Origin: Eledone cirrhosa
Taxonomy: Eukaryota
Assembly: GCA_964016885.1 (NCBI GenBank)
Contig: OZ024762.1
Coordinates: 14,012,001 to 14,076,000 of the forward strand
Length of the DNA: 64,000 nt
Direction: 5' to 3'
The position numbers and the translations under genes are program-made. Shown here in pieces: positions 3,401 through 52,834 of this stretch. The notes below the pieces were generated by a model. The model did not search any database. It saw only the letters and a program-made list of their open reading frames with translations, and was not told the DNA's origin. The stretch's first letter is position 1. Every line of letters starts with the position of its first letter.

Positions 3401-5003
3401 ATTGGGTCCCAATTTAATTAGAGAATAAAAGTGGGGCTGGGTTTGTGAAGGGGATATAAGTAAACATTGTGGGTTTTGGTAAATAGTTGAGGTCAATGTT
3501 TGAGGTCATATTTAGACTTCAATCAATGAAGGTGTATTTTATAAGGTATGATGGGAAAACAAGATGGCCGTTTATTGTCCTATATATATTATCGTCGTAT
3601 CCGCACTTAATTGTAACATTATGGCCAACATATTATGCATCAATATTTCGTGTCACAGCCTAGTGTGGAAGATTGGCAGATTCGGTGGAGCGTCGGACAG
3701 CATGCTTTATGCCATAGAACTACGTCCCTTTACGCTCTGATGTCCGCGATGTTTATTTTTCCTTTTTTCCTTACGGGGTCGATAGAATAAAGTACCAGTA
3801 ATGTACTAGGGTCAATTTACCACAACCATCACCACCATTCACCACTACCACCACCATTCACCACTACCAAATATTTCCACAACCACCACAACCCTGAATC
3901 CGTCACCATCACCACCCACACCATCACCACCGCCGCCATCAACACCACTGTAAATCTTCAGCAATGTCATCTCCTCCCCTACAACAACAACCACAATAAA
4001 ATAAAAACACAAACGAGTTGTCAGAATCTGATTCTTTAATTTCTATAAGTTTTGAATATTTTTTGTTTTTATAAAGTATCATGAATAAATTATTAAAGAA
4101 TAAAGAAATTACATTTATTATAAAAGCTGTATGTTGAGATTTTAATCGGTAGAGCGCCGGACACCTTGTTGTGCACCAGAGTCACGACCCTTTATGTTCT
4201 GAGTTCATATGCCGCCCCCCAAGCTTAGCTTTAGCTTTCATCGTTACAAGGTCGATAAATAAAGTACCAGTGATGCACTCGGGTCGATTTAATCGACTTT
4301 CCTCTTCACCAAAATTGCTGGCCTTGTGCCTAAATCAGACACCCTCATTATAAAGGCGGTAGATGTGCAGTATAATAGGTAAAACGTCGGACAAAATAGT
4401 TTTTGGTATATTGTTACATCCCTTTACGTTGTGAGTTCTAATTGCGCCGAGGTTAGCTTTGCGATTCATCCTTACGGCGAGGGGGAAAGTCGATTAAATC
4501 GATCCCAGTGTATTACTGGTACTTTATTTTATCGACCCCCTTAAGGATGACAAGCAAAGTTAACCTCGGCGGGATTAGAACTCACAACGTAAAGGGACGT
4601 AAGTATATGCTGCAAAACATGGTGTCTGCCGCACAATTTCAATAATAATACTTTATTTTTTCGTCTTTATTTAACATTTAAAATAATTATTTTTGGGCTG
4701 TGGTTTAAATTATTAATTACATTATTTTGAAATAATTGAAAAACGGAAAATCTATTAAAAGTATGATTCGGTAATTATATTTTAACGATTCTATGTAAAC
4801 TATATTGTAATTTTTCGATTTTCTATATTCTAACTGCTTTAGTTTGTTCTACTAGCCAACGGGTTGAGGCCATGCTGGGGCATCGCCATTTTGAATTATT
4901 CTGCTATTTGTTTGTGACAAGAGAAAATATTAGGGAAAATATATATAAAATAGAATATATATCTGAATCTAACCTCGAGAAATGTTATTGATTTAACATC
5001 TAG

Positions 5004-5521: not shown

Positions 5522-5723
5522 TTGCCCATCCATCATTTTTACAGAAAATATCCCCAAACGAAACGAAATTTAATTTCGTTTCGTTATTTGTTTTTATCGT
5601 CTCCGTTGAACCGGTACTTACTCACACTCTATGCAAATTAGTCTGCCCACTACTAATTTTCATAGAAAAAGCATATAACGATATGTGCTTTTACGATTCT
5701 CTAGAGAGGCCGGAAGATAGGTA

Positions 5724-5768
5724 AATATTGCTGATGAGTTGTAACAACAACGAAACTAGTTCAATATT
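5724..5768 (+). ncRNA. Minimal type I hammerhead ribozyme, copy 1
   Basis: AATATTG-CTGATGA-GTTGT(AACA)ACAAC-GAAAC-TA-GTT-CAATATT: 7-bp stem I, 5-bp stem II, palindromic stem III (ACTAGT), cleavage triplet GUU. Confidence 0.85.
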
Positions 5769-6190
5769 CCTTGTCTGGCTTTCTGGAGAATAGAGGAGAG
5801 GTGTTTCCTCAAAAACCAGTATGACTCTAAAAACCGGTTTGTCTGTGTGTTTACATACAGAATAGCTGGCCACTCACAGTAAAGTGACCAGTGAAAAAAC
5901 TTGGTACACCTACATATGTATACGTGTGAGTATTCATATACATACTAGTATTTCAGTATACATATATGGATGTACATCTTTAACTTAATTGTTTAAGCGT
6001 CAGTCATACAAAAGTGAGTTACAAACGAAACGAAATTTAATTTCGTTTCGTTATTTGTTTTTATCGTCTCCGTTGAACCGGTACTTACTCACACTCTATG
6101 CAAATTAGTCTGCCCACTACTAATTTTCATAGAAAAAGCATATAACGATATGTGCTTTTACGATTCTCTAGAGAGGCCGGAAGATAGGTA

Positions 6191-6235
6191 AATATTGCTG
6201 ATGAGTTGTAACAACAACGAAACTAGTTCAATATT
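6191..6235 (+). ncRNA. Minimal type I hammerhead ribozyme, copy 2
   Basis: Identical to 5724-5768, 467 bp downstream. Confidence 0.85.
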
Positions 6236-7424
6236 CCTTGTCTGGCTTTCTGGAGAATAGAAGAGAGGTGTTTCCTCAAAAACCAGTATGACTCTAAAAA
6301 CCGGTTTGTCTGTGTGTTTACATACAGAATAGCTGGCCACTCACAGTAAAGTGACCAGTGAAAAAACTTGGTACACCTACATATGTATACGTGTGAGTAT
6401 TCATATACATACTAGTATTTCAGTATACATATATGGATGTACATCTTTAACTTAATTGTTTAAGCGTCAGTCATACAAAAGTGAGTTACAAACGAAACGA
6501 AATTTAATTTCGTTTCGTTATTTGTTTTTATCCCCAATTTCATATCAGACAAATTTCTCATTAACTTTCACCTTCTACTCCTCCGCCTTGCCTACCACTT
6601 ATTAAACCATCACCATCATCATCATCTTTGCCTTGTCATCATTATCACCATCATTGCCATATATTATTCTTTGTCGGACGCCATGCTTCGACGCATAGAG
6701 TTACGGCCCTTGCCATTCTGAGTTCAAATCTCGCCGAGGTTAACTTTGCTTTTCATCCTTACGGGGTCGATAAAATAAAGTACCAGTAATGCGCTGGGTA
6801 ATTGCTGGCCTTGTGCCAAAAAGTAGAAACAATTATTTTATTGAGTTGTTGTTGTTGTAACTATTTTTCATTTATTGTGGTTGTGGTTGTTTTTATAAAT
6901 ATATCCCCTCATACAAAAGGAACCCCTCACTATACCGTCCTGTACTGTCCCGTACCTTCCTTATTGTCTTCTTAATGTAAGCCCTGTCTGGCTAATAAGG
7001 AAACCATTATTATTAGAATTGTTAAAATTATTGTAGTGGTTTATTATTTACCTTTCATACGTATGGGGTCGATAAAATAAAGTACCAGTAATTCACTGGA
7101 GTTGATTTAAACGACTTTCTCCTGCCTTCCCTTTAAATTGCTGGCCCTGTGCCTAAAGTAGAAACAATTATTATTATGATAAACAGAGAACAAGTGACCC
7201 ACTGGGGTTGATTTAATCAATTTTTCGCTCCCTCAAATATTCTTGGCTTTTTGCTTAACTCAAAACTGTTGTTGTTGTTGTTTCTTCTCTGAAAAGTTGT
7301 TCTTATCGGAAATATCGACAACAGATTCTGAATTTAAAGACTTAGTGACACCTCAAAGACATTCCAAAGACTTCCTGTAGTTTTGAGAATGACATATTTA
7401 CCGATATATATAACACTCTAACAA

Positions 7425-33791: not shown

Positions 33792-34228
33792 CTACGTGTG
33801 TTGCCATCTATTGGTGACAGCCAGCAACAACAACAAGAAAACTGTCAAGAATACATGTCTGTCCAGTGACCTAAAATTGGCGGCGGCGGTGTGTCTCTGC
33901 GCCGCCGCCGACGTTATTGAGTACTCGGAGTGACCACCGGCCAACCGGGAAGTCGTTGTCCGTGGGGTGGCGAATACCGGCCTGGAGTGTGTAGCCGGTA
34001 GCCCCTTGTGGCGCCGAGGTATGACAAACTCCACCGGCGTTGTGTGCAGGCGGGGCGGAATCGTGTGAAGTGTTCGAACCCGGGCTGCATTCGTCGAAGA
34101 ATGCGTTGAGGATCGCTCTTTGTCGTTCAACAACAAAAAGCGTTCCACAACGTGAATGATGCCATTTGAGGCCAGAATATTCGCCTTGATAATTCTGGCT
34201 TGGATTCCATTCCAAACCAAGTAAGTTC
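33792..34228 (-). CDS. Fasciclin (FAS1) domain protein, terminal coding exon (H2 motif, S/T/P-rich stalk, hydrophobic C-terminus)
   Basis: Acceptor tttcttttctttctttattacag, phase 1, reading (G)TYLVWNGIQARIIKANILASNGIIHVVERFLLL. NILASNGIIHVV is the FAS1 H2 motif. Ends ...HVFLTVFLLLLLAVTNRWQHT-stop, which is GPI-signal-like. No upstream exons found in the window. Confidence 0.9.
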
Positions 34229-34328
34229 CTGTAATAAAGAAAGAAAAGAAAATTAAACAAATAAACTATAACAACTATATAATATATAATATAATATAAG
34301 ATCAAAAGATGGTTAAAGGAGTTCCATA

Positions 34329-34399
34329 TATTTTATTATGCGCATTTCAAAAACAAACATCATCATGCAATAATATTTGTGTTTTCATCAGATAAAACA
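34329..34399 (-). ncRNA. Minimal type I hammerhead ribozyme, intronic and sense to the FAS1 gene
   Basis: Minus strand TGTTTTAT-CTGATGA-AAA c ACAAATATTATT(GCAT)GATGATGTTTGT t TTT-GAAA-TGCGCA-TA-ATAAAATA: 8-bp stem I, ~15-bp stem II, palindromic stem III, AUA site. Confidence 0.8.
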
Positions 34400-34499
34400 G
34401 GAGAACATGATATGAAGGCTAAAAAACACTTGTGGATAGTGCAGTTTTAAATCAACATATTGCTTTATTGTACTACAATAAAACTCACCTCCTACATTA

Positions 34500-34540
<41 letters not shown>

Positions 34541-34760: not shown

Positions 34761-35211
34761 ATGGAAAGTTATATTTAAATTGTTGGGTTAACAACGAGTA
34801 AATATTTATAACTGATATAAAAGCAATCAACAAGTATTTGGAGTATATATATGATATTAAATAAATGGAAACTATATTTATAAAACCATATTTATTTCGT
34901 TATATACATTTCAGGGATATCATATTAACAATATGTTATGCCTTCTTCAGAGAAAATACAATATAAACAGTCTTATAAATAAATAGATACGACATACCTT
35001 TCAATCACCTTGCATTTGGGAGGTTGATTTGGCAGTCAAATCAACCTCCCAAATGCAAGGTGATTGAAAGGTATGTCGTATCTATTTATTTATAGACTGT
35101 TTATATTGTATTTTGTCTGAAGAAGGCATAACATATTGTTAATATGATATCCCTGAAATATATATAACGAAATAAATATGGTTTTATAAATATAGTTTCC
35201 ATTTATTTAAT

Positions 35212-40072: not shown

Positions 40073-40267
40073 AGATCTGTTGACCCTAGCAATGCACCTG
40101 ACGGTGTATTGCATAAATCATGGTGTCCATAAGCTGGAACGGTAACTGGAAATCACTGACCTCGGCTGTTTCCGTACACCTTCGGTTTTACTACTTACTG
40201 ATCTACTTGTGAATAGAAGGGACTGCTGAATAATTTAACCATCTCATACATACATACATACATACAT

Positions 40268-40319
<52 letters not shown>

Positions 40320-40323
40320 GTAT

Positions 40324-41222
40324 GCAGTGTTCCTGCTGGCAGCCGATTTCGTACTAAGGCGAATGGATGAAGGACCCAGTCGAGGAATGCCATGGAGAGG
40401 GCAGTCGAGGCTGAGGTACCTGGCATTCGCCGACGACATCGCTTTGATCACTGAAAACAGTGCAGATCTGCAGGCCCTAACAACTTCCCTACAAGAGAGT
40501 ACGGAAAAGATCGCCCTGAGAATCAACACCAAAAAGACGAAGGTCATGAGAACGGTCAGCAACACGGCTCCAGTGATCAGAGTCAACCAACAGGACCTCG
40601 AGCAAGTCGATCACTTCACCTATCTGGGCAGTATCCTGACAAGCAGCGGCGACGCGGAGCTCGACATCAACTGTCGGATCGGCAGAGGAGCCGCAGTTTT
40701 ACAGCGGCTGTGCCCAGTCTGGTCGTCTTCATGCATTGGCACCAAGACGAAGCCCCGCCTGTACAAGAGCATCGTGCTGCCGACAGTGCTTTATGTGAGC
40801 GAGACCTGGAAGAGTACGGCAAAAATAGAGAGACGGCTGAACGCTTTCCACCAGCGGTGCCTGCGAAAGATCCTTCGTGTGTCCTGGTGTGACCGAGTGC
40901 GAAACGAGGAGATCCTGCGGAAAGCCGAGTCGTGGACGCTACAGAGAGTCGAGAGTGGTCACGGAGCGTCGGTGCCGTCTGGCTGGCCGCCATATTCTGC
41001 GTCTGCCAAATGAACGGCATTCGAAGACAGCGATGAACTGGACTCCGCCTGGCGGTAAACTGAGGCGGGGGTTGCCCAAGGATCACCTGGTGGACGATCG
41101 TTCCGGAAGGACCTGATGGCAGCCAACATCCCCTGGCACGGTCTCGAAAAAGTTGCCGCTGATCGTCACCGTTGGCGGGTACTTACTGCTCGATGCACCG
41201 TACGGCGCGGAAGAATCTAAGA
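40324..41222 (+). mobile_element. 5'-truncated RTE-clade LINE (RT C-terminal half and tail), frameshifted
   Basis: LRYLAFADDIAL, LRINTKKTKVM, VDHFTYLGS, LYKSIVLPTVLYVSETW, AFHQRCLRKILRVSW, then WTPPGGKLRRG in another frame. Inserted in (TA)n. Confidence 0.93.
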
Positions 41223-44068: not shown

Positions 44069-44420
44069 GGGGAGATAGGGGGGGGGGAGAAATAGCTATA
44101 GAGAGAGAGAGAAATAGCTATATATATAGAGAGAGAAATAGCTATATAGAGAGAGAGAGAGAGAAATAGCTATAGAGAGAGAGAGATAGCTATAGAGAGA
44201 GAGAGAGAAATAGCTATAGAGAGAGAGAGAGAGAAATAGCAAGACATGAGAGAGAGAGAGAGAGAGAACCGGATAATCAAACACTGACAGACTTGAAATG
44301 ACATGCGTGAAAACGTGATGTCAAAATTAATATAGAGAGCAAAAACAAACAAACCAACAAACAAACAAACATATAAAATAAAATAAAATAACAAATATAA
44401 TTAATCCATTTTCCTTTTAC

Positions 44421-44586
44421 CTTTGATCTCTCATAAACTGGTTCTTGAAGAATCGATGTTATTTTCTCCAATGAATGGTACTTGAGTGCCATGTTGCCAG
44501 GTACAAAGAATGTGAATTTTCCCTCATCGTTGAGGAATTGGTCGGAAATATCTGTGAGAGCATCTGTAACCAACGTAGAAATTTGG
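44421..44586 (-). CDS. Fasciclin (FAS1) domain protein, internal exon with the FAS1 H1 motif
   Basis: Minus strand: acceptor ctctctatttccag, 166 nt reading (x)QISTLVTDALTDISDQFLNDEGKFTFFVPGNMALKYHSLEKITSILQEPVYERSK, donor gtaaaag. FTFFVPxNxA matches the FAS1 H1 motif. Phase 2 in, phase 0 out. Confidence 0.85.
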
Positions 44587-44916
44587 CTGGAAATAGAGAG
44601 AGAGAGGGTGAGTGAATGATGGTTAGAGAGAATGGTGGGTAGAGAAGGGGAGAGAGAGGAAAGTGAGTGAGAGGGTGAATGATGATTAGAGAAGGGAAGA
44701 GAGAGTGTGTGTGTGTGTGTGTGATGGTTAGACAAGGGGAGAGAGTGGCATGGTTGAGAGAGGGTGAGAGTTAGATAAGGGAAGAGAGAGATGACGCATG
44801 ATTGTGAGAGAGAGTGATGGTTAGAGAAGAGAGAAAGAGTGAGGCATGGTTGTGAGAGACAAAGAGTGATGGTTAGAGAGTTGATAAAGGTTAATTCAGT
44901 AAATTTAACCAGTGTG

Positions 44917-44958
<42 letters not shown>

Positions 44959-45033
44959 GTCCCCCAAAACATACACACTTTGACTAGATTGCTGTAGAAG
45001 TGTGTATATATTTTGGTGGGGGAGGGGACACCC

Positions 45034-51832: not shown

Positions 51833-52312
51833 CTTTATGAATACCATAAACATAGGAAAATAAAAATAACAATGTCTGATGCAGGAATTTGACCTTTACT
51901 TTTATCTTCCTCTTCACCCACGTATTCTTGGGAGAGTGGAGGATGGCAACAGATTCTTGAGACAGACCTTCCATAGGAAGTTATCGTATCTAAGTGACTC
52001 GGGTAGACACTCAAGAGATAACAATTGTTTCTACTTTAGGCACAAGGCCAGCAATAACCCAGTGCATTACTGGTACTTTATTTTATCGACCCCGTAAGGA
52101 TGAAAGGCAAAGTCAACCTCGGCGGGATTTGAACTCAGATCGTAAAGGGACGTAACCATGCTGGAAAGCATGGCGTCCGACCCTCTACCGATACTACCAA
52201 CAATAGAAAGAAATATGTTTGTTATCCAACTATTTTGACCACAAGATATAACTGGTTCTCTGGTATCTACTGCTCAGACGGATGAACCAATACTTATGTA
52301 AAATCACACACC

Positions 52313-52362
<50 letters not shown>

Positions 52363-52363
<1 letters not shown>

Positions 52364-52834
52364 AGGCCGGTTGTATGATGCCTGTGTGAGGAGCGCGATG
52401 CTGCATGGTAGTGAGACATGGGTAGCAACCGCAGAGGATATGCGACGGCTGGAGAGAAATGAGGCAAGCATGCTCCGTTGGATGTGCAGTGTAAATGTGC
52501 GTGAACGACCCAGCATAAATGTGTTGAGAGAGAAACTGTGTCTGAGAGGGATAGAATGTAGTGTACGGGAGAGGAGACTGAGGTGGTATGGACATGTGAT
52601 GCGCATGGAGGCTGACCGATGGGTGAAGAAGTGCCAGGAAATGCCAGTTGAAGGAAGACGTGGTAGAGGTAGACCACGAAAAACATGGGCGGAGGTGGTG
52701 AGAACAGACCTCAGATCATTGAAGCTCACGGTGGAGATGACGAGGGACCGTGACGAGTGGAGAGATGCTGTGATGAATAAGACCCGTCCCACCCTTGCAA
52801 GCAGGGAAAAGCGGACGTAAAATGATGATGATGA

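What the first reader, a model, noticed from the sequence alone, without database searches (positions are those of the whole stretch)
5555..6532. 467-bp tandem dimer with a dimer-type hammerhead in each unit: candidate cephalopod retrozyme producing a circular RNA
Seen: two almost identical 467-bp units plus a ~44-bp third start, no credible ORF, each with a minimal type I HHR (5724-5768, 6191-6235) whose stem III is just the palindrome ACTAGT. A perfect 14-bp hairpin marks each unit junction, and tatccccaa flanks the array. Known: minimal HHRs with palindromic stem III cleave as dimers, and tandem HHR repeats in animals (non-LTR retrozymes, PLE pLTRs) can be processed to unit-length RNAs. Inferred: a read-through transcript would release a 467-nt monomer (5762-6228) able to circularise and be re-inserted by a PLE reverse transcriptase.
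Basis: partly seen in the sequence, partly recalled or inferred. Interest (0 to 1): 0.9.

Follow-up and report, generated by a model that had tools for sequence, protein, structure and literature searches.

The report
Hammerhead retrozyme spread by Penelope machinery
This is one copy of a large, recently spreading family of protein-free repeats that each carry a hammerhead ribozyme sequence and insert with the footprints of Penelope-type retrotransposons; they are likely copied from a circular RNA, possibly made from a U6-like promoter inside each repeat.

Summary
Confirmed: two 467-bp units (one difference) plus a 44-bp third start, flanked by a 9-bp target duplication. Each unit has a type I hammerhead, canonical rather than minimal, with a palindromic helix III and covarying stems.

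It is one insertion of a dispersed family with 9,456 exact core matches in the genome. Across 140 stretches, most insertions are two head-to-head arms. Their 3' ends fall at two fixed points about 74 nt apart, one of each in 73 of 75 pairs, mostly in (TA)n. This is the Penelope-like 'tail' signature, and coding PLEs in this genome show it too. No coding PLE carrying this unit as its terminal repeat was found.

Private variants often fill every unit of both arms, 5' ends avoid no position, and locus-wide variants favour A>G on the ribozyme strand. This fits rolling-circle copying of an edited sense-strand circle (inferred). Each unit also holds the upstream element of this genome's U6/MRP genes, about 75 nt before the ribozyme.

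Verdict: a non-LTR retrozyme, a new variant of a known kind. Cleavage, transcription and circular RNA are untested.

The parts
5549..5557 (+). Left target-site duplication TATCCCCAA; last 3 nt shared with the element's 5' start
5555..6021 (+). Unit 1 (467 bp, 35.5% GC, no ORF over 62 aa)
6022..6488 (+). Unit 2; differs from unit 1 at 6262
6489..6532 (+). Partial third unit ending at the family's 'long' (tail-bearing) 3' end
6529..6537 (+). Right target-site duplication; TAT shared with the element's 3' end
5557..5585 (.). 14-bp inverted repeat/hairpin inside the tail (repeated at 6024-6052 and 6491-6519), followed by a T5 run (5591-5595)
5628..5641 (+). U6/MRP/U6atac-like upstream element TCTATGCAAATTAG (predicted Pol III type-3 promoter part; second copy 6095-6108); also one arm of a predicted RNA hairpin
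5673..5678 (+). TATA-like ATATAA, 43 nt after the element start (second copy 6140-6145); predicted start site about 5703-5708
   Evidence: start site inferred
5720..5770 (+). Canonical type I hammerhead 1 (helix I 5725-30/5762-67, helix II 5738-41/5748-51, helix III palindrome ACUAGU 5755-60); predicted cut after 5761; stem I extends to about 5706/5784
6187..6237 (+). Hammerhead 2; predicted cut after 6228
5762..6228 (+). Predicted 467-nt monomer/circular RNA; folds at -146.7 kcal/mol, z = -9.05
   Evidence: RNA itself not observed
6458..6531 (+). PLE-type 'tail' (about 74 nt) between the family's short 3' end (unit 436-442) and long 3' end (unit 38-44); also at 5991-6064

Best explanation
The array is one insertion of a dispersed, non-coding hammerhead repeat family (a non-LTR retrozyme) with Penelope-like insertion footprints, likely copied by a Penelope-like reverse transcriptase/GIY-YIG protein from a predicted 467-nt circular RNA. 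Steps: (1) transcription of the sense strand, possibly from a U6-type Pol III promoter carried in each unit, so one unit drives a start at the foot of the ribozyme and must read through T4/T5 runs (inferred, about 0.55); (2) two hammerheads cut after 5761 and 6228, probably pairing their ACUAGU palindromes as a dimer (predicted, untested), and a host ligase closes the monomer (by analogy to PMC7229834); (3) the circle is sometimes A-to-I edited (inferred, about 0.5); (4) a PLE protein nicks both strands of AT-rich DNA, primes one cDNA at each of two fixed sites about 74 nt apart and rolls round the circle for 0.1 to over 13 laps; the two cDNAs join head-to-head through 0-4 nt overlaps. The geometry in step 4 is shown; the enzyme and rolling are inferred. 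This window's copy is a one-armed, 2.1-unit product in a non-microsatellite target with a 9-bp duplication.
For: 9,456 exact core matches, reversed control 0. 2,058 exact long-end+TATATA junctions. Of 95 divergent junctions in 140 stretches, 75 had both 3' ends at canonical sites, and 73 of those were one short plus one long; the pattern also holds in the 59 stretches not chosen by their short end (29 of 29 canonical pairs). 209 of 222 canonical 3' ends abut TA-rich sequence. Coding PLE-like families here show the same short/long ends in TA, matching the published PLE tail and inverted copy (10.1101/2021.04.23.441226, PMC3846280, PMC11167929). Arms joined head-to-head to 3' parts of coding PLE-like elements in 3 of 46 free junctions (L053, L083, L201). 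Ribozyme stems covary: 6 of 14 pairs change on both sides, 97.6% of cells paired. 37 of 77 young loci with 3 or more copies have a private variant in every copy; 33 loci share one across both arms. 5' ends are not enriched at the cut site: 3 of 244 against 3.7 expected. Locus-wide A>G 16 sites/32 events against T>C 6/6, while single-unit changes are 14 against 20 (Fisher p 0.026 and 2e-4). 5 of 7 recurrent A>G sites cross haplotype backgrounds against 0 of 8 others (p 0.007). Promoter element: best site in the unit beaten by 2 of 3000 shuffles; nine U1/U2 upstream regions score at most 5.2 against 18.2.
Against: No cleavage or RNA was observed. GUU with a 1-2 bp helix III may cleave slowly (own knowledge), and only 1 of 9 Xenopus dimers cleaved in vitro (10.64898/2026.07.22.740005). 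Helix III pairing has probability 0.0 in the folded dimer, which the model cannot represent as a pseudoknot-like pair. No sequence homology ties the unit to a specific PLE: tail against the P086 repeat, 316 of 1000 shuffles as high, and the chimeras involve three different families. Some arrays have period-2 or period-4 variants or mosaic subfamilies (L037, L050, L055, L062, L043, L047), needing multimeric templates, template switching or later recombination. The A>G excess could reflect transcription-associated DNA mutation bias; non-A>G variants also cluster per locus (p 0.03 against 0.006), and neighbour preference was not significant by inspection. Element-to-TATA spacing is 43-45 nt against 47-49 in the five genes. 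The block is also an RNA hairpin arm, and L120 carries three changes in it in all 18 copies.
Confidence: 0.7

Rival explanations
1. Same family and PLE machinery, but the template is a long linear read-through transcript of homogeneous source arrays that the slow ribozyme rarely cuts; no circle is needed.
For: Long arrays exist (about 27 units on C24, about 31 on C1). Periodic and mosaic arrays. In a purified Poseidon system ribozyme cleavage was dispensable and unprocessed RNA was the main substrate (PMC11167929). L195 has two junctions starting exactly at the cut site, as a linear cleaved RNA would give.
Against: Many different private variants fill all units of both arms (33 loci), which needs as many separate homogeneous long sources. 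Recurrent A>G fixed in up to 18 copies of a locus is hard to get on a linear multimer. 5' ends show no pile-up at the cut site or predicted start.
Confidence: 0.2
2. The unit is the pseudo-LTR of a coding PLE, and the arrays are its truncated or deleted derivatives.
For: PLE-type ends; Xenopus retrozymes resemble pLTRs (10.64898/2026.07.22.740005). Only a small sample of the genome's PLEs was inspected (27 stretches from a GIY-YIG search with 10,597 candidates).
Against: None of 65 ORF 3' ends had the unit as its repeat; hits were neighbouring insertions, one in sense orientation 800 nt away across unrelated sequence. The arrays are pure unit repeats. The ribozyme is canonical, unlike PLE minimal HHRs (PMC4209133).
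Confidence: 0.06
3. A local duplication, assembly artefact, or satellite spread by DNA mechanisms, with a chance ribozyme-like motif.
For: The two units are nearly identical; unequal crossover can explain some long or periodic arrays.
Against: Thousands of dispersed copies, fixed 3' ends, target duplications, covarying stems, strand-asymmetric variants, and presence in independent runs under four organism labels.
Confidence: 0.02

Closest known systems
Metazoan non-LTR retrozymes (coral, mussel, axolotl; PMC7229834)
   Same: Non-coding tandem units with one canonical type I hammerhead each, low GC, highly self-paired monomer, target duplication over 4 bp, thousands of copies, PLEs in the same genome.
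   Different: Unit is 467 bp (170-400 nt there; 51-972 bp in 10.64898/2026.07.22.740005). PLE tail/inverted-arm geometry, a U6-like element and an A>G bias were not described in the parts read; a review says retrozymes seem to lack promoters (PMC7761336). Cleavage and circles are shown there, not here.
Endonuclease-positive Penelope-like elements (Penelope/Poseidon, Neptune, Naiad)
   Same: Head-to-head inverted 5'-truncated copy, tail on only one end, about 9-bp duplications, AT-rich/microsatellite targets, two initiation sites (10.1101/2021.04.23.441226, PMC3846280, PMC11167929).
   Different: No RT or GIY-YIG ORF; tail about 74 nt rather than 30-40; arms are many laps of one unit; canonical rather than minimal ribozyme.
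Newt satellite 2 and schistosome satellite hammerhead repeats
   Same: Hammerhead tandem repeats reported to carry their own promoters (snRNA-type Pol II and Pol III respectively), as cited in PMC2220036; newt-type weak palindromic helix III cleaving as dimers (PMC7229834).
   Different: Here the element matches Pol III type-3 genes (U6, MRP, U6atac), not U1/U2. The two original papers were not held.
Rfam Hammerhead_HH9 (RF02275)
   Same: Full-length model match with the same bulged helix I layout.
   Different: 37.7 bits, below gathering 52; helix III is reduced to a palindrome; repeated rather than a single conserved copy.

Membership tests
Non-LTR retrozyme | Type I hammerhead in every tandem unit, at least two consecutive | tested here: met
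   (214 cut-to-cut units)
Non-LTR retrozyme | Short non-coding, low-GC unit without LTR structure | tested here: met
   467 bp, 35.5% GC, longest open stretch 62 aa; pure unit arrays. PBS/PPT not searched separately.
Non-LTR retrozyme | Dispersed multi-copy family with target duplications over 4 bp | tested here: met
   9 bp here; about 11-12 bp at L044 and L058 by eye
Non-LTR retrozyme | Highly self-paired monomer | tested here: met
   z = -9.05 linear, -9.2 circular; prediction only
Non-LTR retrozyme | Self-cleavage of transcripts | not testable with these tools
   needs in vitro assay; only covariation available
Non-LTR retrozyme | Expression as circular RNA | not testable with these tools
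   no raw RNA reads were available to lay
Canonical type I HHR (PMC4209133) | Helix I 6 bp, helix II 4 bp, helix III 1-2 bp with palindromic loop | tested here: met
Minimal PLE HHR (PMC4209133) | Helix II 7-8 bp, helix I 4-5 bp, poorly defined loop 1 | tested here: not met
Rfam Hammerhead_HH9 | Score at or above gathering threshold 52 | tested here: not met
   37.7 bits
Autonomous PLE | RT plus GIY-YIG ORF bounded by the repeat | tested here: not met
   sample of PLEs only
PLE-mobilised element | Inverted head-to-head copy with tail on one end only | tested here: met
   73 of 75 canonical pairs
PLE-mobilised element | AT-rich/microsatellite target bias | tested here: met
   209 of 222 ends; 80 of 140 stretches were selected on a TA junction
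PLE-mobilised element | Shared terminal sequence with an identified autonomous partner | tested here: inconclusive
   no significant alignment; chimeras with three families
Pol III type-3 (U6-like) promoter | Upstream element shared with U6, MRP, U6atac | tested here: met
Pol III type-3 (U6-like) promoter | TATA box at gene-like spacing | tested here: inconclusive
   43-45 nt against 47-49 nt
Pol III type-3 (U6-like) promoter | Promoter activity | not testable with these tools
   needs reporter or 5'-end mapping

The most novel reading that the evidence does not exclude
A self-promoting circular-RNA retroelement. Each unit carries a U6-type gene-external Pol III promoter that survives retrotransposition because the circle copies it. 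A Penelope enzyme twin-primes at two fixed sites and rolls round the circle. A-to-I edits made on one RNA circle are frozen into every unit of a new insertion, so the genome itself records a sense-strand, monomeric, edited RNA template.
Probability: 0.35. Interest if true: 0.85.

Novelty: new variant of a known kind. Interest (0 to 1): 0.63.

Why it matters
How animal retrozymes are transcribed and which enzyme moves them is open in the papers read: PLEs are called candidates, and promoters are said to be absent. This family gives insertion-level evidence for PLE mobilisation in thousands of young copies. It also gives a testable internal promoter, and a mutational fingerprint bearing on circle versus line and on sense versus antisense template (the latter left open in PMC3846280). 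With a sister family, these elements make up tens of thousands of ribozyme-bearing units in one genome and offer a ready substrate for reconstituting PLE rolling-circle reverse transcription.

Tried and rejected
RNA evidence: no RNA holder listed. Four contig runs of unknown kind hold the unit; a 497-nt contig (467+30) fits tandem DNA or a circle equally, so it is not used.

Partner search: blastn of the unit against 27 GIY-YIG stretches and 65 ORF 3' ends found only neighbouring insertions and the sister family. A 12-nt likeness (11 of 12) between this tail and the P086 tail was seen by eye after the fact, is absent in the sister family, and is not supported by alignment; rejected as proof.

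The U1/U2-type promoter idea (newt-like) was rejected: those genes have a different upstream motif. Not all Pol III hits carry the element: 7 of 12 U6 loci do; 0 of the 3 further U6 hits located among 14 fetched, and 1 of 6 U6atac hits. The rest look like retrocopies or interrupted copies by eye, and the profile used 5 genes.

Enrichment of 5' ends at the cut site (19 against 10.4) shrank after exact end mapping. Three arms of equal length (L214, L245, L262) carry different variants; left as probable chance.

Rows dropped: 27 of 140 stretches over 1.5% divergent, and marker sites 244 and 355, were left out of the variant spectrum. Alignment A1 had two wrong ranges and was replaced by A2. Earlier-findings look-ups returned nothing.

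Full report
Observation. The array is as described: period 467, 2.1 copies at 5555-6532, one difference between units, no open stretch over 62 aa, 35.5% GC, and TATCCCCAA on both sides. Each unit has a type I hammerhead matching Rfam HH9 over the whole model at 37.7 bits, under the gathering score of 52. Helix I is 6 bp with an internal loop and extension, helix II is 4 bp with a 6-nt loop, and helix III is the palindrome ACUAGU. By the definitions in PMC4209133 this is canonical, not minimal, and is the kind said to cleave as dimers. The predicted cut follows GUU (5761, 6228); 15 of 214 units sampled have GUC. Across nine subfamily and sister sequences 97.6% of cells pair and 6 of 14 pairs change on both sides; related sequences inflate such counts.

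Family. The own genome (3.0 Gb) gave 260 DNA matches, a lower bound, and the 150 listed are 99-100% identical. An exact core pattern gave 9,456 matches with 0 for the reversed control. One 3' end followed by TATATA occurs 2,058 times. Subfamilies range to about 88% identity. A sister family of about 68% identity has 17,608 hits to a 21-mer and homologous ends. Related contigs occur in runs under four coded organism labels. The host's identity was not tested.

Insertion anatomy. I analysed 140 stretches: the window, 34 chosen by similarity, 25 by ribozyme pattern, and 80 from the 100 listed of 165 young short-end sites. Most hold two arms joined head-to-head, usually with 0-4 nt overlap. 3' ends fall at unit 436-442 (short) or 38-44 (long). 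Of 95 divergent junctions, 73 are short+long, 1 short+short, 1 long+long, 14 have a non-canonical end and 6 are cut by the stretch edge. In the 59 stretches not chosen by their short end, all 29 canonical pairs are short+long. Many apparently single arms have a very short partner of the other type. 209 of 222 canonical ends abut TA-rich sequence, partly by selection. This is the PLE signature: an inverted 5'-truncated copy with a tail on one end (10.1101/2021.04.23.441226; PMC3846280), which maps to two initiation sites, with nicking and extension of both strands at AT-rich DNA (PMC11167929). Coding PLEs with RT and GIY-YIG matches are abundant here. Two families show the same short/long ends in TA; one of these, P086, had no Pfam hit and only a weak match to a PLE protein. 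Three of 46 free 5' junctions join 3' parts of coding PLE-like elements head-to-head, in L053 with complementary end types. They involve three families, and no homology singles out a partner. No coding PLE with this unit as its repeat was found among 65 ORF ends. The window copy is an atypical one-armed, long-ended insertion outside a microsatellite.

Template. Among 113 young stretches, 37 of 77 with three or more copies have a private variant in every copy, and 33 share one across both arms. Arms run from 0.1 to over 13 units. Their 5' ends are not enriched at the cut site (3 of 244, 3.7 expected) or at the predicted start. This points to a monomer bottleneck followed by multimerisation, as rolling round a circle would give; the monomer folds far better than shuffles. 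Locus-wide variants favour A>G on the ribozyme strand: 16 sites and 32 events against 6 and 6 for T>C. Single-unit variants do not: 14 against 20. Five of 7 recurrent A>G sites occur on both haplotype backgrounds, against 0 of 8 others; one of the five rests on a mosaic locus. A-to-I editing of a sense-strand template is my reading. Transcription-linked DNA mutation bias remains possible, events are not independent, and clustering and context tests were weak. Against a simple monomer circle: period-2 and period-4 arrays and mosaics, and two junctions at the exact cut site in L195.

Promoter. Three U6 loci, RNase MRP and U6atac share TATG(C/G)(A/T)AAT(T/G)AG at -77 to -79 and TATA at -30; U1 and U2 do not. 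The unit has TCTATGCAAATTAG at 5628-5641, beaten by 2 of 3000 shuffles. All 78 pattern hits in 766 kb of both strands fell in this family or its sister, partly assigned by adjacent sequence. Unit 74-140 differs at 1 of 67 sites between the youngest and oldest subfamilies against 55 of 467 overall (p 0.002). The implied start, about 5703-5708, is the foot of helix I. Caveats: TATA spacing is 4 nt short; the block is also an RNA hairpin; the unit has T5 and T4 runs that must be read through, though U6 genes here end in seven or more T; and the long 3' end coincides with the T5 run.

Comparison. It meets the sequence-level criteria of non-LTR retrozymes (PMC7229834; 10.64898/2026.07.22.740005); cleavage and circles were not testable. 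It works like a non-autonomous PLE but is not an autonomous one. A review states retrozymes seem to lack promoters (PMC7761336), although newt and schistosome hammerhead repeats have internal promoters as cited in PMC2220036. Ten searches listed no paper on a cephalopod retrozyme, a U6-type promoter in one, or tail geometry or editing marks in one. The library omits most subscription journals. The supplement of PMC7229834 could not be read, nor those of the bioRxiv preprints, and they may hold such examples.

What I saw of each paper. 10.64898/2026.07.22.740005: parts 1-3 of 5. PMC7229834: parts 2-3 of 6, discussion and passages. PMC11167929: parts 1-2 of 4. 10.1101/2021.04.23.441226, PMC4209133 (plus a supplement search with one file not searched), PMC3846280, PMC2220036, PMC7761336, PMC6962438: passages. 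PMC108972 and PMC308520: nothing. The slower rate of GUU, ADAR preferences and transcription-linked mutation bias are recalled.

Verdict. A real, young, abundant non-LTR retrozyme family with strong evidence of PLE-type mobilisation (about 0.9), a probable circular monomer template (about 0.7), and suggestive evidence of an internal U6-type promoter and of editing. New variant of a known kind; interest 0.63.

Noticed in passing
L111 8950-9500; L112 2400-2950; L100 about 4120-4270; L265-L274: Sister hammerhead repeat family (units roughly 420-510 bp, GUA triplet, U-U at base of helix II) with the same promoter-like element and homologous short and long ends; 17,608 exact hits of a 21-mer.
   Followed up: partly
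window 34282-34500; related motifs at 34950, 35117, 42179, 42332: Terminal-repeat fragments of the P086 PLE-like family with short and long ends in TA; tail 89 nt.
   Followed up: partly
L195 4585-6018: Two junctions start exactly at the predicted ribozyme cut (unit 208), one joined to unit 180; a possible trace of in vivo cleavage, single locus.
   Followed up: partly
L092 (C1 about 14.04-14.05 Mb): Some units of an older array have ACTCG in helix III at irregular 2-3 unit spacing.
   Followed up: no
L081 beyond 4424: A family arm is joined to a different tandem repeat of about 300 bp of unknown kind.
   Followed up: no
L157, L158, L160-L162 (C19 U6 array): Five of ten U6 copies have their upstream element replaced by a SINE-like sequence.
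   Followed up: no
window 40234-41013, 52302-52820; 33792-34265, 44277-45032: Reverse-transcriptase-like fragments, and exon-like frames on the minus strand that look fasciclin-like by eye; labels recalled, not tested.
   Followed up: no
window 57498; L106, L110, L115, L193: Small dispersed elements with a hammerhead-like core (CTGATGA...GAAAC), often as inverted pairs in TA.
   Followed up: no
L060 2897-6388: Units carry many single-base insertions, possibly uncorrected read errors in the assembly.
   Followed up: no
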